In this document: positions 7,128 to 64,000 of the stretch, piece after piece
Layout: every line of letters begins with the position of its first letter
How positions within the stretch are numbered: the stretch's first letter is position 1
Virus record (IMG/VR): IMGVR_UViG_3300046167_000870
Source: a virus
Direction: 5' to 3' (one strand)
Length of the DNA stretch: 64,000 bases
Notes under the pieces: generated by a model
What the model saw: only the letters and a program-made list of their open reading frames with translations
Database searches by the model: none
What the model was told of the DNA's origin: nothing
Program-made: the position numbers and the translations under genes

Positions 7128-7151
7128 TAATAGGTTTTATTATAAATATTA

Positions 7152-10807: not shown

Positions 10808-10865
10808 TGTCTTATATTATATTTAATATTGTTTTATTATAAATATTAGAAAATATCTCAAAAAT

Positions 10866-23351: not shown

Positions 23352-23382
23352 TTCTATATATTAATTATTGTTATAAATATTA

Positions 23383-34121: not shown

Positions 34122-34145
34122 TATGTATATTTTTATTTATAAATA

Positions 34146-35012
34146 TTAGTTTCTTCTGTTAGAATTACCTCCTCGTGAAACATTACTGCCTCTACTTACA
34201 TTACTTGAAGGTCTTGTAGTAGTGGTGCTATTGTTTGACGACGGTCTAGTATAAATATTAGAAGAGTTATTATTATTAATCTCTGGTCTACCATATCCTC
34301 TAACAGGTTTAGAATTATTATTATTAATTCTAGGCCTACTATTATTATTTATATTAGGATTATTAGGATTATTATAAACTCGTGGTTTGTTGTTTATTCT
34401 TCTACGTATTTTAGTAGCAATTATATCAACGTTGTTTTGATCAACATTAACTCTTGGTTTGTTTCTATTAACAACAACTCTATTTTCTATATTATTAGAA
34501 CCTCTTCTTCCATTAATATAAGCTGTATTAGGTCTATTTCTATGTTGCCAAGCATAATTATTCATTTCTTGTCTCCAGCCCCAATTATTCCAACCCCAAC
34601 TGTTCCATCCATAATAATGGTTATTCCAACCCCAATAAGGTCTATTCCAACTATTCCAACCCCAATTAGAATATGGATAACCCCATACCCAATCATTCCA
34701 CATCATATCTCTGTTCCAAGAATAGCTATAACTCCAATATGGGTTATAAAAATTATATCTATTACCTAATATACGATTATTCCAATCAAATGATCTAGGT
34801 TGACTTAAAGCATACTGAGCAAAATCATATCTAAATTGAAAATCAGTTCTTAATTTCCATTGTAGTTGCCTGTAATTTAATGTATCTATTTGTACATCAG
34901 CAGGTACTTCTAAAACTGTATCATAAATGGGATCATGACCAACGGTACTTACATGCCACGTTGTTGAGCATCCCGTTAATAATAATCCCAATAATAATAA
35001 TACTTTTTTCAT
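34146..35012 (-). CDS. Lipoprotein with W/Y/N-rich core and N/S/R-rich disordered tail
   Basis: [15 protein letters not shown] lipobox; low-complexity composition. Confidence 0.7.
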   Translation of the reverse strand: MKKVLLLLGLLLTGCSTTWHVSTVGHDPIYDTVLEVPADVQIDTLNYRQLQWKLRTDFQFRYDFAQYALSQPRSFDWNNRILGNRYNFYNPYWSYSYSWNRDMMWNDWVWGYPYSNWGWNSWNRPYWGWNNHYYGWNSWGWNNWGWRQEMNNYAWQHRNRPNTAYINGRRGSNNIENRVVVNRNKPRVNVDQNNVDIIATKIRRRINNKPRVYNNPNNPNINNNSRPRINNNNSKPVRGYGRPEINNNNSSNIYTRPSSNNSTTTTRPSSNVSRGSNVSRGGNSNRRN

Positions 35013-35014
35013 AT

Positions 35015-35956
35015 TTATATTTTATTTTCTGCTGTTACTTTAAGGTTGGAAAGTTTCCATCCTCCACCTTGACCACATAAAGTACCGTGACTACATTCAC
35101 CACCACTATCTTTATACCAGTGAGGATCATTTACACCAGGTGACCAATCACCATGATAAGAAGGTGTAAACCACCAACCCACAGCCATAGCATCTTTTAA
35201 TTTACTCATATCTAAAGTATTACTAGCTGGGTATGCTGGTTCTGTCATATCAAACACTTTTACACTATTTGAGTCTTGAGATAAAGTAATAATCATATTT
35301 GTGTAATCAGCATTAAAATCAACTACCATATGGAATGGTTTGTTTGGATCGATTTTACCTACTAAACTATGTACACCATCTGATCCAGCTGCTGCTTGCA
35401 TTTCATCCCATTCCCAACAATCTGTATTAGCTGCTTCTGTATAAGACACTTCATATCTTTGAGGTCCTCCTTTATCGTCAGCTAAATGTAAAGTATGTTG
35501 GAACATTTTTTGACCATTAGTTTCTAAGAAATCAATTTCTTGACAAAATGGACATGGATAACCTGGTTCACCTGGTTTAGGTTGAAACTCAGCATCACAA
35601 TAATTTCCATTTCCTTTAGGTTGTTTAGCGCTACTAACAGCATAAAAAGCTGCATTTAACCAATCACCTGTAAAGTCTGAACGTTGTGCTAAATTAGATA
35701 AATCGATGTCTGCTTCAATTTTTGATATGTTTATGTATCCATTTTTAGAAGCTACTCTACCAGCTTTTACTGAACTTTCGTCTCCAAAATCAACACCACC
35801 TACACTAACAACTGGATCTACTCCACATTTGTTATAATCCACATCAAATTCAACATCATATGTTATAGGATCATTTACTACTTTTTCTACTTTTTTATTA
35901 TTGTTACATGATATAACAAATATCGACAATAATAAGATTAAGATTGTTTTTTTCAT
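35015..35956 (-). CDS. Lipoprotein, GH7-like (clan GH-B) glycoside hydrolase
   Basis: VIS-C lipobox; collinear motifs ADIDLSNL, LNAAFYAV, NYCDAE, CQEIDFLETN, IDPNKPFHMVVDF, LSNLKV. Confidence 0.7.
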   Translation of the reverse strand: MKKTILILLLSIFVISCNNNKKVEKVVNDPITYDVEFDVDYNKCGVDPVVSVGGVDFGDESSVKAGRVASKNGYINISKIEADIDLSNLAQRSDFTGDWLNAAFYAVSSAKQPKGNGNYCDAEFQPKPGEPGYPCPFCQEIDFLETNGQKMFQHTLHLADDKGGPQRYEVSYTEAANTDCWEWDEMQAAAGSDGVHSLVGKIDPNKPFHMVVDFNADYTNMIITLSQDSNSVKVFDMTEPAYPASNTLDMSKLKDAMAVGWWFTPSYHGDWSPGVNDPHWYKDSGGECSHGTLCGQGGGWKLSNLKVTAENKI

Positions 35957-37312: not shown

Positions 37313-37341
37313 TACTTTTATTTTATTATAAATATGTAAAA

Positions 37342-37911
37342 TTATTTTTTAAGTGACTCTAGATACTCAACTGTTTCTTTTACATACTCATCTACTCTTT
37401 CAACATTTAATTTACCATGCCAAGTTTCTACATCACCTTGTTCAGTAACATGGCCAGTATTTGATTCATTTAGTTTTGATTCTACGAAATCTTTAAAATC
37501 CTGGATTCTACTATCTATTACTTTGTTATTAATGTTATTAAAGTATTCTTCATATTTACCTTCTGCTTTTAATTTATCTTCAAATTTAGCATAGCAATTT
37601 AAACAGAATTTGTAGGTATTATAATATGGTTTATCTACCCTTTGGTCCATTATTTTTTTACATTTAGGACAAAATAAAGGCATTACATGAGCTTTTTTAG
37701 CTTTATCTAATTTAGTAATATTTTGTTTTATACCATCTTTAATAGTCCAAGTACGACCATCTCTTGATTCCCAAATATCTCCTTCTTTATATTGTTCTTC
37801 AGGTGGTGTGTAACCTATTGATTCTCTTGTTTTTTCTCCATATTTACCTTGAACAAGATTACGGATTCTTTCAACATCTTTCTTTTGAAATTCTTTTTTT
37901 AGTTGGGTCAT
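37342..37911 (-). CDS. Zinc-finger hypothetical protein
   Basis: CPKC...CLNC; WTIKDGIKQN. Confidence 0.7.
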   Translation of the reverse strand: MTQLKKEFQKKDVERIRNLVQGKYGEKTRESIGYTPPEEQYKEGDIWESRDGRTWTIKDGIKQNITKLDKAKKAHVMPLFCPKCKKIMDQRVDKPYYNTYKFCLNCYAKFEDKLKAEGKYEEYFNNINNKVIDSRIQDFKDFVESKLNESNTGHVTEQGDVETWHGKLNVERVDEYVKETVEYLESLKK

Positions 37912-39420
37912 AAACCTAATTTTTTCAAATCATTAATTACTTGATCAGCATTTTGATAGAAAATCCCTGTACCACCTGCTGCGTTCCAGTTATCAATTGT
38001 ACTACCTTTATCATCAATTAAAATATCAAATTTTGTTAAATTTGGTTTAACTGTATGTTTTTGTTTAGCTGATCTATACGTTACCTTTGGTTTCGTTGAA
38101 TATAATGTACCAATTTTATCTTTAACCCACAAGCCTTTTCCAATAATACTTTGTTTTTTAATTGAAGGTGCAGTTAACATCTCAAATGGATATTGCTCTA
38201 CAAATTTAACTAATTTTTGAGCACCAGGCATTAATTCAATACCTCGCCAAAACGCAACTTTATGTTTTTCATCAATTAAATCCCAAAAAGCATTTAAACC
38301 ATTTTTATCAACATAAGCTTGAGGCATCATACCTGATAGATCTTCAAATCGTTTATCAAAATCAGCTACCACACCATCCATATCTAAATAAATGTAATAT
38401 TCTTCATCCTCAGCTATTTCAAATATAGCTTCAGCTAATCCGAAAGGATCTTTATTAGTCCAACTTCTAAATGCTATGTTTCCTTCTTCGTATGCTTCTC
38501 TTTCTATCTGTTCTAAATACTCATCTTCATTAACATTATCTGTATTAATGTTTTCTAATCTGTCTTCGTGGTTTTGGTGAACGTGTATTAATTCATGCGC
38601 ATATGAACGTAATATATCCTTGGGATGTCTACCTAACGTGTATAGTACAACTTCATTATTGTTGGGGTCATAATACGCGGTTTTACCGAAAAAATTATCT
38701 GCATTCTTAAAATCAGTATGTATAAATTTGACTTTAGGATATGGTTTTAATTTTAACCCATCCATTTTCCATACTTGTAGTTAATGATTTAATTAAAGGA
38801 TTAAAATCAAAATTAATAGGATCTAAAACTTCTTTTAATATTTTTTGTTCTTTAACTACATTATTAACGTATCCAAAAATTTCTTCTGCTTCTTCATCTG
38901 TTACTTCTTTTGGTAATAATGGTCTTAATTTTTCTACTGATATTTTAGCTGCATTTCTAGCTGCAGTTCCCGATGCCCCACTTTGTGTTACTGTAGTTCC
39001 TACTCTTAAATTAGGGTAATTATCTACTGATTTAGTTCTTTTAGCTATATCAGCAAAATCATCTTCATTACCTTCTCTAGCTCCAAGTATGAATATTACA
39101 TTTTCATCTGGGTGTTCTTTAGCATAATTGTATACTGCTTGGATTGGAGGTTTAGAACTTAATTTTACTTCTACATTAATTGGTAAATATTGTTTATAAA
39201 TGTCCCATATAATAAGTGATTCTTCTGGTGTTACTCCGTCTCTTTCTTTACCACCAATTAAAATAATAAACTTATCTATTTCAGGATTATTTTTTATTGC
39301 TGTTTTTACAACTTGAAAATGACCATTTGTAGGAGGTTTAAAACCACCTCCATATACTGCTACCGTTCTTTTTTCTTCCTCGGGTAATAGTCCTTTTATA
39401 ATTTCTTTAACTAAACTCAT
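37908..39420 (-). CDS. Three-domain protein: HIGH-type nucleotidyltransferase + HExxH metallopeptidase-like + HAD 5'(3')-nucleotidase (one +1 indel near 38765)
   Basis: YGGGFKPPTNGHF and SGTAAR; RSYAHELIHVHQ; YLDMDGVVADF...LIDD. Span 1513 = 3n+1; removing one A gives ...TSMEMDGLKLKPYP. Confidence 0.7.
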
Positions 39421-52628: not shown

Positions 52629-53171
52629 CTATATTAGGTCTTTTACATTACCTTCACCAAAAATATCCTTATAATGATTTTTAACTTTTTCATAAGTGTA
52701 CTCAAAAAGGCTACCAGTAATTATATTAATGTTTATTTTAGATTTAGTTACCATTTCACTTCCAGTAGTAATTGTTTCTATAGATTCTGTACGATAAGCT
52801 GATATTTCGTTACCATCATCATCAAAATCAATATATTCTACTGTTTGATCTTCCCATGAAGAAGAATATGTTACTTGTTCTACTTGTACACTTTCAGTAA
52901 GTGGAAATTCTAATGGATAAGAATTATTATGAATTTCATCATCAAATGTATAGTTAGGAGATAACATACCAGAAGCATCTAGTCCTATATAATCTTCTTT
53001 ATATACTGGGTGTCCTGATGAAGATTCTTTACTTACATAATGTTGTGTATTTGCAAGTATATCTCCTGTTGTTTTATGTAATACGTAATTTTCGATCCTA
53101 ACATAGAAGCTACTTACTTCTCTATTAGCTCCTCCGTTTTCCGTAATTGAACCTGTAACTATAAATCCCAT
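52629..53171 (-). CDS. Hypothetical fibre-associated protein
   Basis: 180-aa ORF translationally coupled to the collagen gene. Confidence 0.65.
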   Translation of the reverse strand: MGFIVTGSITENGGANREVSSFYVRIENYVLHKTTGDILANTQHYVSKESSSGHPVYKEDYIGLDASGMLSPNYTFDDEIHNNSYPLEFPLTESVQVEQVTYSSSWEDQTVEYIDFDDDGNEISAYRTESIETITTGSEMVTKSKININIITGSLFEYTYEKVKNHYKDIFGEGNVKDLI

Positions 53172-56100
53172 TATTTTTTATTTAATTTGTTTACTTTATC
53201 ATTTAATTCTTTAATAGCTTCTATTAATATTGCTACTAATTTTTCATATTGAACTGTGATATAATTTTCACCTGTTAAACTAGCTCCTTTATCTCCATCA
53301 GCATCAAATGGTGCTTGTCTAATTATTTCAGGGAAATGTTTTTTAACTTGTTGTGCTATTACCCCAATATGTCGATCTTTTTTATCATATCCAAATTGTT
53401 CTGCTAATTCATTAGATCTGTAATAAATACCATCTAATTCCATTACTTTATCTAAAGCACTTTCAATTCTACCTTCAATATCTTTTAATCTCTCATCTGA
53501 GTAATATGCAACAACATCACCTGTTGATCTTACTGTACCAAACTGAACTGTATCTGTAGTTCTAGTATATTGGTTCATCGCAGTAGCATAAGTATTTGAT
53601 GTACCTGATGCACCTTTTGCTCCAGTAGGTCCTGTTCCACCTGTTGCACCTTGAGATCCTGTTCCTCCAGTACCACCTGCTTGACCTTTTTGTCCTTTAG
53701 CACCACCACCACCAGTTGGTCCTGTTGCTCCTTTTTGTCCTTTTGGTCCTGTTGGTCCTGTTGAACCACCTGAACCTGAAGGACCTGTAGCACCTTGAGG
53801 TCCTGTGTTTCCAGTTCCACCTCCTTGACCTTTCTGTCCTTTAGCACCCGTAGAACCTTTAGCACCACCGCCACCAGTTGGTCCTGTTCCACCTGTTGCA
53901 CCTTGAGGTCCTGTTGAACCTGTTCCACCTGCTTGACCTTTTTGTCCTTTAGGTCCAGTTGGTCCTGTTCCTCCAGTTCCACCTGTAGCACCTGTAGTAC
54001 CTTGTGGTCCTGTTGGTCCTGTACCTCCAGTACCACCTGTTTGTCCTTTTTGTCCTTTTGGTCCTGTTGCACCACCACCACCTGTAGCACCTGTTGTACC
54101 TTGTGGTCCAGTTGATCCATTTGAACCTCCTTGACCTTTCTGTCCTTTAGCACCTGTTCCACCACCTGGTCCTGTTGCACCTGTAGTACCTTGAGGTCCT
54201 GTTGAACCATTAGATCCATTTGAACCTGCTTGTCCTTTTTGTCCTTTTGGTCCAGTTGGTCCTGTTCCACCACCTGCTCCTGTAGCTCCTTTTGCTCCAG
54301 TAGGTCCTGTTCCACCTGTTGCACCTGTTGTACCTTGAGAACCAGTTGAACCTGTATTACCATTTTGACCTTTTTGTCCTTTTGGTCCTGTTGCACCACC
54401 ACCACCTGTTGCACCTGTAGTACCTTGAGAACCACCTGGTCCTGTTGCACCTGTAGCACCTTTTTGTCCTGTTGTACCTTGAGATCCGGTTGAACCAGTA
54501 GCACCTTTAGCACCTGTTGGTCCTGTTCCTCCAGTTCCACCTGTAGGTCCTGTTGCACCTGTAGCACCCTGAGAACCTGTTGGTCCAGTATTACCTGTAG
54601 CTCCTTTTGCTCCAGTTGGTCCTGTATTACCTACTGTACCTTGAGGACCATTATTTCCTTGTTGTCCTTTTTGTCCTTTCGTACCAGTAGTACCTTGTGG
54701 TCCAGTTGCTCCAGTTGGTCCTGTTCCTCCTGTAGCACCTTTAGCACCAGTTTCACCTGTTTGGCCTATAGCACCTTGTGAACCAGTAACACCTATTGAA
54801 CCTTTTTGTCCTTTAGGTCCTGTTGGTCCTGTATTTCCTGTAGTACCTTGTGGTCCTGTTGGTCCATTAGCACCTTTTTGTCCTTTTGCTCCAGTATCTC
54901 CTTTATCACCTGTTGATACAAATGAAATTAAAACATCTTCATTATTTGTAAATGGAGCAACTGCTGATCCTGCTTCATTTGTGATTGCTAATTCCCAATA
55001 ACTTCCATCATCAGTTAAATCTGAAATAGCAAATGTTAAGAATTGTGTTGCATCCGTTCTATTAGAAATCCTAATATGTCCTTTAACAGCTGAAGTAACA
55101 CTATCTATAGTTGAAAGTGTACTTTCTATATTATTACCATCATCATCTGTAACATTAACATATGCTTTTGATGCTATATTTTGTGTTGTACTATTTAATC
55201 TTATTCTACCTGTGCCTGGATTTGAATCCCCTGTTGCACTATCAAATGTATAATCAAACGAGTTACCACCAAAGTTACCATCTGTACCTTGTGTACCTGT
55301 AGCACCTTGTGATCCTGTTTGACCTAATTGTCCTTTTTGTCCTTTTGCACCTGTAGTACCTTGTGATCCTACTTCACCTTTCTGTCCTTTTGTACCTGTA
55401 GTACCTTGAGCACCAGTTGGACCAGTTGGTCCTGTTGCTCCTTTTTGACCAGTTGTACCTTGAGATCCGGTAGCACCAGTAGCACCTTTGGCACCTGTAA
55501 CACCAACTTCACCTTTTTGTCCTTTAGTACCTATAGTACCCTGTGAACCAGTTGGTCCTGTTGGACCAGTTGCTCCTGTAGCACCTTTAGCACCTGTAGC
55601 ACCTTGTGGTCCTGTAGGTCCTGTTGGACCATCATCACCAACTGCACCTTGTGAACCAGTAGGTCCTGTATTACCATTTGCACCTTGAGGTCCAGTAACA
55701 CCTAATTGTCCTTTTTGTCCTTTTGTACCTATAGTACCTTGTGAACCTGTTGGTCCTGTTGGTCCAGTAGCACCTGTTGCACCTTTAGCACCAGTTGTTC
55801 CTTGTGAACCTGTTGGTCCAGTTGGACCATCATTTCCTACTGTACCTTGAGCACCAGTAGGTCCTGTTTGACCTGTAGCTCCTTTTGCTCCAGTAGGTCC
55901 TGTTTGACCTGTAGCACCTTGAGAACCAGTATTACCTGTAGCACCTTTTTGTCCATCTGTACCCTTGTGTACCTGTTGCTCCTGTAGCACCTTTAGCACC
56001 TGTAGGCCCTGTTGGTCCTGTAGCACCTTGAATACCTTGATCACCTTGATCTCCTTGAGCACCTTTTTGTCCTGTTGTTCCTTGTGAACCTGTTGGTCCA

Positions 56101-57068
56101 GTATTACCTGTAGCACCTTTTTGTCCATCTGTACCTTGAGCACCAGTTGGTCCTGTATTACCTACAGCACCTTGAGCACCTGTTGGACCAGTTGGTCCTG
56201 TAGCTCCTATAGCACCTTGAGCACCTGTAGTACCTACTGTACCTTGAGAACCTGTTGGCCCTGTTGGACCATCTGCACCTTGTGCACCAGTTGGTCCTGT
56301 TGGTCCTACTGCTCCTTTTTGTCCTTGGTTACCTACTGAACCTTGAGCACCATCTGCTCCTTGAGCTCCAGTTGGTCCTGTTGGACCTGTTGGTCCTACT
56401 ACACCTTTTTGACCAGTTGTACCTTGAGTACCTGTTGTTCCTTGTGGACCAGTAGGTCCTGTAGCACCTGTAGCTCCTTTTTGTCCATTTGTACCTTGAG
56501 CACCAACATCACCTTGATCTCCAGTAGCACCTTTAGCACCAGTTGAACCTGTTGGTCCTGTTGGTCCTGTTGCTCCTTTAGATCCTTGTGGTCCTGTAGC
56601 ACCTTGTGGTCCTACTACACCTTTAGCACCTGTAGAACCTTGTGTTCCGTCAGCACCTTGTGCACCTGTAGGTCCAGTTAAGGATAAATCTGTTCTATAT
56701 TTTATATCACCCGATGTATTTGAAACTAATATTCGAGTTTCTGATGTTCCATTTGATAAATTGTTTATATGTAAATTACTACCTGTAAGTGAAGTTGAAG
56801 CAACGATATTACTACCTGTAATAAACCCTGCAGAGGTAATATTTCCAATTACATTAAGGCCACCTGCTGGATACCAAAATAGTTTACTTTGTGAGTCTTT
56901 ATATAAAGTATCAAAATTATCTCCCGAAGATGTATCAAAAAATGGAATTTGATAAGCTTTAGAGGGTGATGATCCTGAACCTGTGGGACGTACGAAATAC
57001 TTCCCTGCTTTAATTTTGTTTAAATCTGCATCACTACCGGATACAACTACTTTTTTCCAATTTGGCAT
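53171..57068 (-). CDS. Collagen-like fibre protein 2 (~1,298 aa; one +1 indel at 55962-55964) with S74 chaperone
   Basis: Long G-X-Y tracts (GPT, GAT, GSQ, KGQKG), one internal globular domain, SDERLKD...GVIAQQV...[17 protein letters not shown]; span 3898 = 3n+1. Confidence 0.88.
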
Positions 57069-57180: not shown

Positions 57181-58363
57181 TTATAATTGGAACCAGCCTG
57201 TTGGTTTAACATAAGGCGACATACATGATCCAGTTCTTTCTACATTATGATTAATATTATTAGGGTCAATTGGGGAGAGAGAACGAGATACCATTAATTG
57301 AGTATACTGGTAAGTACTATTATCTTGATAAGTAAATGGTGATACATAATGTATTTCTCGTGGGAAATCTGATGGTGATAAGGTTACTACGCTTCCTTCA
57401 ATATTACCAGCTCTATTTACTATAAATGATCTAACATAGTCATTTGCAGAATTAACATAAAAGAAAGAACTTGAAGCCCATTGAAATGGATAACTATAAT
57501 TAGACTGAGATATATTTACAACTGTACAATTTACGAATGATTTATTTGCAAAAGGATAAGGGTCAATACCTAACTCTTCCTCTATACAAAAAGAAGAGGT
57601 TGATGTTGCTGATGCCAAATCATAGGGTCTAGATAAATGGAAAATAGTACAACAAGTCCACATAGGATCATTTTCTGCAGTAAAATCAACTTCTCTGTGG
57701 AATTGATATAAATGAGAACCAGTATAACCAAAAGATATTTGATCAACATTTTGAGTTAATGATTGGGTTACTGCTGCTATTCGTCTAACAGTTCCTAGTA
57801 CTGGTGTTTAAAGTGGTTATATCAAAATTTGAATTTAATTGATATTGTGTTATGTTTGATAATGCTGATCCTTGTCTAACCCCGAATTGTACCACAGAAC
57901 CAGTATCTGGTACTTGTATTGATTGTATAGCTCCAAATGCAGGTGATAATCCAGATCCTAATGTAGCTGCATTTAATGTTAACGATGCTGTATTATTAGT
58001 TGGACTTTGCCAAAGTTCAAAACTACCAAGATTTGGAGCTGTAGAATCTGAGGAAGAATACATATACTGATAAACTAATTGTTTATATGGAGCACCATCT
58101 GAAAAAGATGAGGTACCCCACCAACTAGTGTACATATAATGAACCAAACTAGCGTCACCACCATCATAACGTGAATTTATTGCTTGTTGTTGGTGATATA
58201 ATCCACTATAATTTTTAAAACTTTGATAATTTGGGAATTGTGCTGGGGTAGCAGTTGCAAAATCTCCTAATTCTAATTGACAAGTAAGTACAGGCCAATC
58301 AGCTTCTGATGTAACTTGCCAAGTTCCTCCTTGCATTACCCTAAAGAAATTTTGATTTGCCAT
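57181..58363 (-). CDS. Beta-rich hypothetical fibre-associated protein (~393 aa; one +1 indel near 57794)
   Basis: ORFs 57785..58363 and 57181..57663 join through ...TSTRTVRRIAAVTQSLTQNVDQISFG...; span 1183 = 3n+1. Confidence 0.65.
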
Positions 58364-61300
58364 TATTTACCTTTTAATTGATCTATTTGGATTTGTTGTT
58401 CCTTAATAGCTTCAATTAATAAGGCAACAATTTTTTCATACCTAACAGCTTTATATCCATTTTCTCTTGTAGTTACGATTTCAGGTAAAATTTCTTCTAT
58501 TTCTTGAGCTATTACTCCAATATCATGTCCTTCGTTACTGTGTAACCAAATCTTTTGTTCCTCAGTTAATGGTCTCCAATCAAACTCAACACCACTTACT
58601 TGTTTTATTTTTTCTAAAGCATTAGAAATAGGTATAATATTATCTTTAAATCTTTTATCTGATGATGCAAATGCTACAACGTCATTTGTAGCTGTAATTT
58701 TACCTACTGTTGCTGGGACTACTGCTGATCCAACATGAAGTCCACCAGCTGATACTGTTAAATGATCTCCATTGAATACTAAATTAGCTTCACCATTAAT
58801 ACCTGCTGCACCTGTTGCTGTTACAACTCTATCATTTGAACCATTTGTAAATGCTGTTACTGCACCACCTGGACCTGATGGTCCATCTGCACCTTGAGCT
58901 CCACCTGCTCCTTGAGGTCCTGCTGCTGTTGAATCTGCACCTGTAGCACCTTGAGCACCTTGTGTTGAATTATCTGCTCCATCTGCACCTTGTGGTCCAT
59001 CTGCTCCTTGAGTAGAGTTATCTGCTCCATCTGCACCTTGTGGTCCATCTGCACCTTGAGTTCCTGTACCATCTATACCTTGTTTACCTTGAGCACCCTG
59101 AGTAGAATTATCTGCACCTGGTTCTCCTTTTCCACCTGTTGCTCCTTGAGTTGAATTATCAGCTCCTGTTGCACCTTGTGGTCCTGCTCCTGTTGCACCT
59201 TGTGGTCCTGCTCCTGTTGCACCTTGTGGTCCTGCACCTGTTGCACCTTGTGGTCCTGCTCCTGTTGTACCTTGAGTACCATTTGTACCTTGAGTACCAT
59301 TTGTACCTTGAGTACCACTTGCACCTTGTGGTCCTGTTCCTCCTGGTGCACCTTTAGTACCTAAACTAGCTGTAGAACCAACTGTGTAGAAGAAATCTGT
59401 GCCATCACAATATATTCCAATTACAACTTGTGAACTTAAAGTAGTAGGCATTGTAAATGCACTACCATTTAAATATACATTACTACCCGCTGAAGGTGTA
59501 AATGTTACTGTTCTGGCTGTAGATGCACTTTGTTTTATTCTTATAACACCTGTATCACCAGCTTCCCAATGATTTGCTCTATCAAGTGTAATTGTTAAAT
59601 TACCTGTTAATGCTGCTACTGTTGCATTTGAACCATCTTTAGGATTAAATGCTACTGTACCTGTTGTTAATAATGCTTGTTGATCAATTGTTAACTTACC
59701 ATTTAAGTATGATGTAGATCCATCAAATGTAAAATTAGGTTCACCAACTAATCCTCCACTACCATCTGCTGTTACTAATCTATCACTTACATCACCTGAT
59801 AAATTAGCTACTCCTGTTGCACCTTTTTGTCCTTTAGCTCCATTATTAGTAAACTGTATTCTTACACTCTCACCATTAGAAAAAGTACCAGCAGCTTGTA
59901 CATCTGCAGCACTAACATCTAATAATGCTCTTGTTGCATTAATAGTATTAATACTATAATCAGCAACTGTAATAATATCACCTGAACTTTCACCAGTAAT
60001 TATTAATTGTGATTGTTTTGACCATAAATTATTGTGATTAACACCATCGGCATCTTCTAATGCTAATGAAATTTGAGTAGCTGATCCAATTGTAGTATTA
60101 TTAAACCTAATTGCACCCGCAGCACCAGCCATATTTGTACTGGTTTCATAATCATAATTTAATCCTGCATTATTTCCAGGAGCACCTTTTGTACCTGCGG
60201 GTCCTGTTCCTCCATCATCACCTACAACACTAAAAGATAAATATAATTTATCCCCATTAGAAAAAGGTGTTGTTGAAGAATAAGCTTCATCTGCTATAGT
60301 AAAAGTTTTTATATTAGTACCATCACTTATATTTGTTATTTTAAATAATATAAATTTACTAGAATCACCCTTTAATGAAACTTGCATATATGCTTTAGCA
60401 GTTGTATTACTTACAGCATCTATAGCATCATAAAAAGTAGCCCAATCATCTCCATTAACATCTGTATCTCTTACATAAGCGCTAGTAGCATTTGCTATAG
60501 TAGAATTACTAAATCTTATATTACCATTTCCTACTGAAGAGTCAGGAGTGGTAGTTTGATCGTAGGTATATGGAGCTGTTATTGCACCTGAACTACCAAT
60601 TGTTCCTTGAGTTCCAACTCCTGTTATACCTTGAGTACCTTGGGCTCCTTGAGTTGAATTATCTGGTCCAGTAGCACCTTGAGCACCTTGAGTTGAATTA
60701 TCAGCACCATCTGTTCCTTGGGCTCCTTGTGTAGAGTTATCTGGTCCTATAGTACCTTGTACACCTTGTGCTCCCTGAGTAGAATTATCTGCTCCGTCTG
60801 CACCTTGGGCTCCTTGTGTAGAGTTATCTGGTCCTGTTGTACCCTGAGCACCTTGAGTTGAATTGTCTGGTCCAGTAGCACCTTGAGCACCTTGTGTTGA
60901 ATTATCTGGTCCAGTAGCACCTTGTGCTCCTTGAGTTGAGTTATCTGGTCCAGTTAAACCTTGAGTACCTTGAGCTCCTTGAGTTGAGTTATCTGCACCA
61001 TCTGCTCCTTGTGCTCCTTGTGCTCCAGTATCACCTTTATCACCTGTTACTTGGAATGAAACAACTATATCATCTGTATTGGCAAATGGGCTAGTTGCTG
61101 ATGATGCTTCATTTGCTACTGTTAAAATATACCAAGCGTTTGTATCTTGACCTGCTACAGCACTTATTTGGAATAATAAGAAATCATTTGTATTAGACTT
61201 TTCTGATATTCTAACATGACCTTTTATTGTAGATGAAGCATTAGCAATTGTTGTCATAAATGAAACAATACTATTACTACTATCATCTGTAGCATCAATA

Positions 61301-63956: not shown

Positions 63957-64000
63957 AGTAAATTATATGGTTATAAATATTAGGATGTTTCTATTTCTTG

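What the first reader, a model, noticed from the sequence alone, without database searches (positions are those of the whole stretch)
35015..35956. GH7-like (cellulase-family) glycoside hydrolase as a phage lipoprotein
Seen: after a lipobox, six motifs occur in the same order as in fungal Cel7 enzymes as I recall them. ADIDLSNL matches FDVDVSQL; LNAAFYAVS matches LNGALYFVS; NYCDAE matches GYCDSQ/AQ; CQEIDFLETN matches CSEMDIWEAN with the E-x-D-x-x-E triad intact; IDPNKPFHMVVDF matches LDTTKKLTVVTQF; WKLSNLKV matches VTFSNIKF. Seven further Cys are present. Established: GH7 is regarded as essentially eukaryote-restricted. Inference: a compact, loop-reduced (endo-type) GH7 relative displayed on the infected Bacteroidota cell as an auxiliary glycan-degrading gene. 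It could be a transfer from a marine protist or a prokaryotic/viral GH7-GH16 intermediate.
Basis: partly seen in the sequence, partly recalled or inferred. Interest (0 to 1): 0.85.

Follow-up and report, generated by a model that had tools for sequence, protein, structure and literature searches.

The report
Phage lipoprotein related to GH7 cellulases
A marine bacteriophage encodes a small lipid-anchored enzyme that is a true but distant relative of the GH7 cellulases, so far regarded as essentially eukaryotic, and it belongs to an undescribed family carried mostly by viruses.

Summary
The minus-strand ORF 35015-35956 encodes a 313-aa protein with a lipobox (Cys17), all six quoted motifs and seven further Cys.

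- Curated HMMs (Pfam, PHROGs) see nothing.
- A profile of 32 homologues finds only a small GH7 endoglucanase among all PDB sequences (8POF, E 5e-8).
- Of 74 distant profile hits, 67 are Pfam GH7 and none is GH16.
- Profile-profile comparison with haptophyte/dinoflagellate GH7 gives 99.7% probability (E 7e-27), against 2.3% for a small GH16 profile.
- The E-x-D-x-x-E triad and 22 further GH7-conserved positions are kept.

The family forms its own clade beside algal GH7. It is mainly in uncultured tailed phages, usually as a lipoprotein, with a few copies in giant viruses and bacterial chromosomes. It is absent from 50,697 deposited phage genomes.

The window is a T4-like myovirus nearest to a Flavobacterium phage.

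Not supported: surface display, because the Bacteroidota surface-export signal is missing. Untested: substrate and biological role.

Two other first-stage notes flagged the same family on other DNA.

The parts
35015..35956 (-). ORF of 313 aa (stop codon included): GH7-lineage glycoside hydrolase made as a lipoprotein precursor (P0001)
35906..35956 (-). Signal peptide with lipobox (residues 1-17, ...FVISC). The Cys is kept in 29 of 32 aligned homologues.
35594..35602 (-). Y119-C120-D121, invariant in the family and in algal GH7 (the GH7 'YCD' element). C120 is the presumed disulfide partner of C138.
   Evidence: The disulfide is inferred from GH7 knowledge and was not measured.
35513..35545 (-). 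C138-Q-E140-I-D142-F-L-E145-T-N147-G: the catalytic E-x-D-x-x-E strand. E140 is the presumed nucleophile and E145 the presumed acid/base. All are invariant in 32 of 32 homologues.
35486..35488 (-). H157, invariant. It aligns with the conserved His that follows the catalytic strand in GH7.
34146..35012 (-). Downstream gene, starting 2 nt after the GH7-like stop: a second lipoprotein of 288 aa, rich in W/N/Y with an Asn-rich tail. No family assigned. It accompanies the GH7-like gene only in the closest relative (L015).
37326..37335 (-). Promoter-like motif ATATTTATAA that opens the five-gene unit containing the GH7-like gene
34137..34146 (-). The next copy of the same motif, marking the start of the following unit

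Best explanation
The gene encodes a catalytically competent, loop-poor (endo-type) retaining beta-glycanase of the GH7 lineage within clan GH-B.

Inferred steps:
- It is exported through Sec, cleaved and lipidated at Cys17, and so tethered to a membrane of the infected cell's envelope.
- Catalysis follows the GH7 double-displacement mechanism. E140 acts as nucleophile, E145 as acid/base and D142 as helper, supported by the conserved N101, Y105, Y119-C-D121, H157, Q227 and W280.

The gene sits in a variable island of a T4-like myovirus, about 167 kb long, that most likely infects marine Flavobacteriia. It lies in a transcription unit opened by the same promoter-like motif that precedes the structural genes, so it is probably made late.

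Most likely role: an accessory (moron / auxiliary) enzyme that cuts a beta-glucan-type polysaccharide outside the cytoplasm.

My odds:
- Real GH7-lineage hydrolase: about 0.85.
- Beta-1,4 or mixed-linkage glucan as substrate: about 0.5.
- Nutrient-acquisition (AMG-like) role: about 0.35.
- Clearing host or particle glycans for release or superinfection control: about 0.2.

Shown here: homology, fold, conservation, the lipobox and the phage context. Inferred: activity, substrate, location and timing.
For: Homology and fold:
- The family profile hits only GH7 RsSymEG1 among 177,635 PDB sequences (E 5.2e-8).
- 67 of 74 distant hits in 1.8 billion proteins are Pfam GH7 and none is GH16.
- hhalign against algal GH7 gives 99.7% probability, E 7e-27, over 198 columns.
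- Atlas searches by features and by shape rank GH7 above GH16.

Conservation:
- The catalytic triad is invariant in 32 of 32 homologues.
- 26 positions are shared with algal GH7.

Lipoprotein:
- A lipobox is present in about 46-49 of 68 related loci, including the bacterial chromosomal copies.

Phage context:
- Portal, terminase, capsid, sheath and fibre genes are present.
- TerL is 60% and MCP 55% identical to Flavobacterium phage vB_FspM_immuto.
- The gene lies between blocks that are syntenic with that phage.
- The promoter-like motif has 16 copies, all on the coding strand, against 2 expected.
- Gene GC and GC3 equal the phage mean.
Against: - No curated GH7 model detects it. PF00840 gives nothing at E<=10 for any of 32 members or for the bacterial copies.
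- No activity data exist for any member.
- The Gln of the GH7 'YCDxQ' element is Glu or Gly here. The Trp platform at residue 268 is His in this subclade. Substrate binding may therefore differ from cellulases.
- No CBM or other informative domain is fused in any longer variant.
- No glycan-use genes lie nearby.
- The residues after Cys17 (N-N-N-K-K) lack the acidic Bacteroidota lipoprotein export signal (PMC5080379), which argues against surface exposure.
- Late timing rests only on a sequence motif.
Confidence: 0.72

Rival explanations
1. Host-glycan depolymerase. The envelope-tethered enzyme degrades the host's own capsule, exopolysaccharide or a receptor glycan late in infection. This would free progeny from debris or block superinfection, rather than feed the cell.
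For: - The gene is probably in a late-type transcription unit.
- It sits in a variable island next to another lipoprotein.
- Sister variants without a signal peptide carry an N-terminal extension and could be virion-associated or released at lysis.
- Giant-virus copies plausibly act on host walls.
Against: - Bacterial chromosomal copies are also lipoproteins and lie among housekeeping genes.
- No cellulose-like beta-glucan is known to me on the surface of Flavobacteriia (own knowledge).
- The neighbouring lipoprotein is not co-conserved.
Confidence: 0.2
2. Transglycosylase rather than hydrolase. As in GH16 XET/CRH enzymes, the retaining machinery would remodel or cross-link an envelope glycan.
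For: - A retaining E-x-D-x-x-E centre allows transglycosylation (knowledge of clan GH-B).
- The acceptor-side residues differ from those of cellulases: Gln to Glu/Gly, and a W/H swap.
Against: - No residue pattern diagnostic of transglycosylases was identified.
- Every characterised GH7 enzyme I know of is primarily hydrolytic (own knowledge).
Confidence: 0.07
3. Lysis enzyme. A periplasm-facing, membrane-tethered glycanase would cut peptidoglycan as part of a lysis cassette with the adjacent lipoprotein and the upstream 227-aa protein, which has hydrophobic segments.
For: - It is exported and lacks a surface-export signal.
- Late-type unit.
- The adjacent lipoprotein gives a faint PHROG 'Rz-like spanin' hit (E 0.19).
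Against: - That spanin hit covers only the signal peptide, residues 1-17.
- No clan GH-B enzyme is known to cleave peptidoglycan (own knowledge).
- The family also occurs in giant viruses of protists and beside algal GH7.
- The neighbours are not co-conserved.
Confidence: 0.06
4. Non-catalytic beta-jelly-roll (concanavalin-like) glycan-binding lipoprotein, for example an adhesin or a receptor mask.
For: The fold is shared with many lectins. BFVD matches are ConA-like and LamG proteins.
Against: E140, D142 and E145 and their supporting residues are invariant in 32 of 32 homologues and shared with active GH7. Such purifying selection on catalytic residues is not expected in a lectin.
Confidence: 0.04
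5. Ordinary GH16-type laminarinase or lichenase that only looks like GH7 because both share E-x-D-x-x-E.
For: - The motif EIDFxE resembles the GH16 motif EIDIxE.
Against: - No PF00722 match for any member.
- None of the 74 distant profile hits is GH16.
- hhalign against a GH16 profile gives 2.3% probability over 36 columns (the profile had only four sequences).
- GH7 aligns about 57 more residues and ranks first 46 times.
- The YCD / CxE Cys pair and the C-terminal Trp/Cys elements are GH7 features.
Confidence: 0.02

Closest known systems
RsSymEG1, the small GH7 endoglucanase of a termite-gut protist (PDB 8POF, 321 aa)
   Same: - It is the only PDB sequence found by the family profile (E 5.2e-8).
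- It is compact and loop-poor in the same way.
- It shares NAxxY, YCDA, CxExDxxEAN and the KPF strand.
   Different: - It is a eukaryotic secreted protein, not a lipoprotein.
- The Pfam GH7 model recognises such proteins, whereas the phage protein falls below every curated threshold.
- The phage domain is shorter still, about 283 aa when mature.
GH7 proteins of marine haptophytes and dinoflagellates (Prymnesium parvum, Chrysochromulina tobinii, Cladocopium, Prorocentrum and others)
   Same: - They are the nearest bona fide GH7 by profile search and hhalign (99.7%, E 7e-27).
- 26 conserved positions are shared, including four Cys.
- They come from the same marine planktonic setting.
   Different: - A well-supported branch separates them from the family (SH-aLRT 98).
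- They are often multidomain, with CBM1 or PAN modules, or with several GH7 domains.
- They are GC-rich eukaryotic genes.
- They keep the Gln of YCDxQ.
Fungal Cel7B/EG I and Cel7A (for example 1EG1, 1CEL)
   Different: - The family profile gives no sequence-level match even at E<=10.
- The fungal enzymes are 370-440 aa, with long loops that form a deep cleft or tunnel.
- They are glycosylated secreted proteins and often carry CBM1.
GH16 enzymes of clan GH-B (laminarinases, lichenases, plant EG16)
   Same: Beta-jelly-roll fold and an E-x-D-x-(x)-E catalytic strand. They are common in marine Bacteroidota, often as lipoproteins.
   Different: - No profile relationship.
- They lack the YCD / CxE Cys pair.
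Virus-encoded glycoside hydrolases proposed as auxiliary metabolic genes (for example the soil viral GH75 chitosanase, PMC9485262)
   Same: A phage-borne polysaccharide hydrolase lying outside the core replication and structural modules.
   Different: - Different fold and family.
- That enzyme's activity was demonstrated; here nothing has been assayed.
- This protein is lipid-anchored.

Membership tests
Glycoside hydrolase family 7 (GH7) | Recognised by the curated family model (Pfam PF00840, cut-off 27 bits) | tested here: not met
   No PF00840 match at E<=10 for P0001 or for any of 32 homologues. The bacterial copies are also missed in a six-frame search.
Glycoside hydrolase family 7 (GH7) | Significant profile-level homology to bona fide GH7 sequences | tested here: met
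   - hhalign gives 99.7% probability, E 7e-27, over 198 columns.
- 67 of 74 distant profile hits carry PF00840.
- The only PDB sequence hit is GH7 8POF.
Glycoside hydrolase family 7 (GH7) | GH7-type beta-jelly-roll fold over the whole catalytic domain | tested here: met
   - The model has pLDDT 89.6.
- Both sides of the Atlas comparison are predictions.
Glycoside hydrolase family 7 (GH7) | Catalytic E-x-D-x-x-E on the central strand (nucleophile, helper Asp, acid/base) | tested here: met
   E140, D142 and E145 are invariant in 32 of 32 homologues and align with the triad of algal GH7 and 8POF.
Glycoside hydrolase family 7 (GH7) | GH7-specific supporting elements: NxAxY, the Y-C-D...C-x-E Cys pair, the His after the triad, the C-terminal Trp platform and Cys | tested here: met
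   - N101, A102, Y105, Y119, C120, D121, C138, H157, Q227, W280 and C288 are conserved with the same residue in both groups.
- Exceptions: the Gln of YCDxQ is E/G, and W268 is His in this subclade.
- Disulfide geometry was not measured.
Glycoside hydrolase family 7 (GH7) | Retaining beta-1,4-glucanase activity | not testable with these tools
   No biochemical data exist for any family member.
Glycoside hydrolase family 16 (GH16) | Recognised by PF00722, or profile homology to GH16 | tested here: not met
   - No PF00722 match.
- None of the 74 distant hits carries PF00722.
- hhalign against a four-sequence GH16 profile gives 2.3% probability over 36 columns.
Glycoside hydrolase family 16 (GH16) | GH16 structures are the best structural matches | tested here: not met
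   [not shown]
Bacterial lipoprotein (signal peptidase II substrate) | N-terminal signal peptide ending in a lipobox with an invariant Cys | tested here: met
   - The N-terminus is MKK, a hydrophobic core, then V-I-S-C17.
- The Cys is kept in 29 of 32 aligned homologues.
- A lipobox is present in about 46-49 of 68 related loci.
- Lipidation itself was not tested.
Surface-exposed Bacteroidota lipoprotein | Lipoprotein export signal: a polar or Lys residue followed by two or more acidic residues at positions +2 to +6 (C-X-K-(D/E)2-X, SDDDD, SDDFE) | tested here: not met
   - The residues after Cys17 are N-N-N-K-K-V-E. Most homologues likewise lack paired acidic residues.
- The rule is taken from PMC5080379.
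- The rule is a consensus, and the host is only inferred.
Phage spanin / lysis cassette | Recognisable endolysin, holin and spanin genes next to one another | tested here: inconclusive
   - The only signal is a PHROG spanin hit of E 0.19 confined to the neighbour's signal peptide.
- The other unit members match no family.
- Only 64 kb of about 167 kb was examined.

The most novel reading that the evidence does not exclude
This would be the first GH7-lineage enzyme family native to bacteriophages and bacteria. It would be a virus-borne sister clade of GH7 that has moved among giant viruses of marine algae, tailed phages and a few bacteria. Phages of alga- or particle-attached Flavobacteriia would use it to cut the cellulose-like beta-glucans of phytoplankton, such as haptophyte scales and dinoflagellate thecae. 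It would also be the smallest natural GH7 scaffold, about 283 aa.
Probability: 0.25. Interest if true: 0.85.

Novelty: new variant of a known kind. Interest (0 to 1): 0.68.

Why it matters
GH7 contains the main industrial and ecological cellulases and, to my knowledge of CAZy, is treated as a eukaryotic family. A sizeable GH7-lineage clade that curated models miss would matter in four ways.
- It would extend the family's range to prokaryotic viruses. The clade is carried by dozens of marine phage lineages, at least two giant-virus contigs and a few bacterial chromosomes.
- It points to virus-mediated gene flow between algal and bacterial worlds.
- It offers a minimal GH7 core for structure-function work and engineering.
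- It adds an unrecognised glycan-degrading activity to models of phage influence on marine carbon turnover.

All of this depends on showing activity and finding the substrate.

Tried and rejected
Searches that found nothing informative:
- Single-sequence searches against Pfam, PHROGs and PDB.
- tblastn of the protein against 50,697 deposited phage genomes: no match.
- No whole genome is held for the window.
- BFVD gave only weak GH16 / ConA-like matches.
- Pfam on longer family variants found no CBM or other substrate clue. The only result was dockerin-like repeats just below the Pfam cut-off in the Planctomycetota-type forms.
- The Atlas feature search on the N-terminal extension of P0026 gave no usable hit.
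- Pfam on the other members of the transcription unit and on nearby genes was uninformative.
- Literature searches for bacterial, viral or phage GH7 found no description. Word-start matches were to GH73-GH79.

Ideas rejected:
- The GH16 reading.
- A functional pair with the neighbouring lipoprotein. That gene is conserved next to the GH7-like gene only in the closest relative.
- The spanin hint, which covers the signal peptide only.
- Recent acquisition from a GC-rich alga. The gene's GC and GC3 equal the phage mean.

Scans without result:
- The sigma-70 and terminator consensus scans of the unit were at background level.

Not attempted:
- A rooted tree with fungal GH7 and GH16 outgroups. No canonical fungal sequences were available by reference, and alignment at that distance would be unreliable.

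Full report
**Observation**

The window holds a 313-codon ORF on the minus strand at 35015-35956. Its product (P0001) starts with a typical signal peptide that ends in the lipobox V-I-S-C17. Besides Cys17 there are seven Cys, at 44, 120, 135, 138, 180, 288 and 294.

**Single-sequence searches**

P0001 on its own has no significant match in Pfam, PHROGs or the PDB sequences. It has 64 homologues of similar length in public metagenomes, nearly all without any name or Pfam assignment. An alignment of 32 diverse members (A1) has these invariant residues:
- N101, Y105 and Y119-C120-D121
- C138-x-E140-I-D142-F-x-E145-T-N-G
- Q153, H157, C180, Q227, S272-P273, C288 and C294

**GH7 or GH16**

Sequence profiles:
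- The A1 profile, searched against all 177,635 distinct PDB sequences, finds one relevant chain. It is 8POF (RsSymEG1), a 321-aa 'smaller GH7 endoglucanase' of a termite-gut protist, at E 5.2e-8. No other GH7 chain and no GH16 chain appears even at E<=10.
- The same profile against 1.84 billion representative proteins gives 294 hits. I passed 74 of the more distant ones (E 1e-24 to 1e-6) to Pfam. Of these, 67 carry Glyco_hydro_7, four also carry the eukaryotic CBM1, and none carries Glyco_hydro_16.
- The named relatives of these hits come from haptophytes (Prymnesium, Chrysochromulina, Haptolina), dinoflagellates (Cladocopium, Prorocentrum and others) and a dictyochophyte.
- Profile-profile comparison of A1 with 29 such algal GH7 proteins gives 99.7% probability, E 7e-27, over 198 columns at 28% identity.
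- The same test against a GH16 profile gives 2.3% probability over 36 columns around the catalytic strand. That profile was small, with only four sequences.
- A merged alignment shows 26 positions conserved with the same residue in both groups. They run from R67 to C288 and include the triad, NAxxY, YCD, H157, Q227, W280 and four Cys.

Structure:
- The AlphaFold model is confident: mean pLDDT 89.6 and pTM 0.86, with only the signal peptide and linker (residues 1-26) disordered.
- Foldseek against the PDB puts GH7 first, with GH16 interleaved at similar E-values.
- The Atlas searches, by language-model features and by shape, give the same order: the protein's own viral clusters, then GH7, then GH16.

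**Is it a member of GH7?**

The curated Pfam GH7 model does not detect any of the 32 family members or the bacterial copies. In a maximum-likelihood tree of 89 sequences, the family is separated from 33 algal GH7 sequences by a well-supported branch (SH-aLRT 98). Canonical fungal GH7 and a GH16 outgroup could not be included, so the root is open. I file the protein as a divergent sister lineage of GH7 (GH7-like) rather than as an ordinary member.

**Where the family lives**

- A pattern-plus-tblastn scan finds it in 59 IMG/VR viral contigs.
- The same kind of scan finds only five loci among one genome for each of 185,579 prokaryotic species. Four are in Halieaceae MAGs and one is in a Planctomycetota MAG.
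- In the Haliea genome the gene sits between uvrB and purK on a 212-kb contig, so it is chromosomal.
- Only 5 of 301 genomes of that bacterial family have the gene. In the tree these copies nest among viral sequences.
- Two contigs are giant viruses. L065 carries RNA polymerase II Rpb1 domains, DUF4116 and a DEAD helicase. L062, a GVMAG contig, carries DUF5901, topoisomerase IA and DHFR. Their copies lack a lipobox.
- A few members sit on short, 52% GC, single-gene contigs that look like eukaryotic transcripts.
- Other phage contexts are typical large-phage neighbourhoods: ribonucleotide reductase, QueC/PTPS, UvdE and T4 endonuclease V. One has a nearby protein with a T9SS sorting domain, a Bacteroidota hallmark.
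- None of the 50,697 deposited phage genomes has a detectable copy.
- The exact P0001 sequence occurs on 22 metagenomic contigs, the longest of 166,821 bp. Several related clusters include Tara Oceans records.

**The window**

The window is part of a T4-like myovirus with portal, large terminase, major capsid, tail sheath and collagen-like fibre genes. All long ORFs are on the minus strand. The nearest cultured relative is Flavobacterium phage vB_FspM_immuto, with TerL 60% and MCP 55% identical. This supports a Flavobacteriia host by inference.

In that phage, the interval between the NT5C-type nucleotidase and the terminase holds other small hypothetical genes. The GH7-like gene therefore lies in a variable island. 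Its GC (0.339) and GC3 (0.150) equal the phage means of 0.316 and 0.147, so it is not a recent import.

The decamer ATATTTATAA occurs 16 times, always on the coding strand, against 2 expected. Most copies lie 5-31 nt upstream of start codons, including those of the sheath, portal and fibre genes. The GH7-like gene has no copy of its own. It lies in a five-gene unit bracketed by copies at 37326-37335 and 34137-34146. This suggests, but does not show, late co-expression with structural genes.

The next gene (34146-35012) encodes a second lipoprotein, rich in W/N/Y. It accompanies the GH7-like gene only in the closest relative.

**Localisation**

About 46-49 of 68 related loci, including the bacterial ones, encode a lipobox, so lipid anchoring is a family trait. 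Surface exposure in Bacteroidota depends on an acidic lipoprotein export signal just after the Cys: C-X-K-(D/E)2-X, SDDDD or SDDFE (PMC5080379). P0001 has N-N-N-K-K-V-E at that place, and most homologues also lack paired acidic residues. The host and the generality of the rule are both uncertain, so the location remains open.

**Mechanism and role**

- Shown here: homology to GH7, the fold, strict conservation of the catalytic centre, the compact size (a mature domain of about 283 aa, against 321 aa for the smallest solved GH7), the lipobox and the phage context.
- Inferred: retaining double-displacement hydrolysis with E140 as nucleophile and E145 as acid/base; an open cleft, and therefore endo action; and a beta-glucan-type substrate.
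- Differences from cellulases may shift specificity. The Gln of YCDxQ is replaced by Glu or Gly. Residues 268 and 271 covary as W/Y in most members but H/W in this subclade.
- No fused CBM or neighbouring gene points to a substrate.
- I favour an accessory glycan-degrading role, either on imported or external algal beta-glucan. Degradation of host or particle glycans for release is the main rival. Transglycosylation, a lysis function and a lectin-like role are minor rivals.

**Novelty**

I found no paper in the searchable library that describes GH7 relatives in phages or bacteria. That GH7 is treated as essentially eukaryotic is my own knowledge of CAZy, not a tool result.

Two other first-stage notes of this scan flagged the same family on other DNA, as 288-aa lipoprotein forms. 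Forms with exactly those motifs (for example P0044) are in alignment A1, so the tests here apply to them too.

The finding is a new variant of a known kind. It would interest CAZyme and marine-virus specialists, with function still to be shown.

Noticed in passing
window, 16 sites on the minus strand (e.g. 7140-7149, 10837-10846, 23371-23380, 34137-34146, 37326-37335, 63971-63980): The promoter-like motif ATATTTATAA, usually followed by TAAAA, occurs 16 times against 2 expected, always on the coding strand. Most copies lie 5-31 nt upstream of start codons, including those of the sheath, portal, adaptor and fibre genes. It is probably this phage group's late promoter. It resembles the T4 late promoter TATAAATA but is not identical to it.
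   Followed up: partly
window 34146-35012 (-): A second lipoprotein of 288 aa lies directly downstream. Its central region is extremely rich in Trp, Asn and Tyr (WGWN-type repeats) and its tail is rich in Asn, Arg and Ser. It matches no family and has a neighbouring homologue only in locus L015.
   Followed up: partly
window 37908-38765 (-): This is a 285-aa protein. Residues 121-283 match a 5'-3' deoxyribonucleotidase (phrog_2643). The first 120 residues or so carry an HExxH-type motif (HELIH), so this may be a fusion with a metalloprotease-like module.
   Followed up: no
window 53171-56143 and 58363-61257 (-): These are very long collagen-like tail-fibre proteins. They raise the local GC to 0.38-0.45, against about 0.30 elsewhere. 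A 330-aa ORF is nested in another frame at 53575-54567.
   Followed up: no
L062 5704-6798 and L065 5818-6738; proteins P0073, P0077, P0080, P0127: Family copies on giant-virus contigs and their closest relatives lack a lipobox. Several of them (P0077, P0080, P0127) start with a Gly/Ser/Ala/Asn-rich N-terminus of the MSKAR...AG..GS type. One such copy (P0073) nests inside a clade of phage lipoprotein forms.
   Followed up: partly
L003/L004 and L011-L014 (proteins P0006, P0010); P0009, P0028, P0064; P0026: Close relatives (64-82% identical in the catalytic domain) carry different N-terminal additions. One is an 85-aa extension without a signal peptide (starting MEEHVSQ...). Another is a module of about 170 aa behind a lipobox. 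A third is an aromatic-rich module of about 250 aa. None matches Pfam.
   Followed up: partly
L001 2840-6097: In a 171-kb phage contig, a 1085-aa protein with a T9SS C-terminal sorting domain (Por_Secre_tail) lies 2 kb upstream of the GH7-like gene. This is a phage protein apparently addressed to the Bacteroidota type IX secretion system.
   Followed up: no
P0001 residues 268 and 271 (window 35144-35155): Two aromatic positions near the predicted cleft covary across the family. Twenty sequences have W268/Y271 and twelve, including this one, have H268/W271.
   Followed up: no
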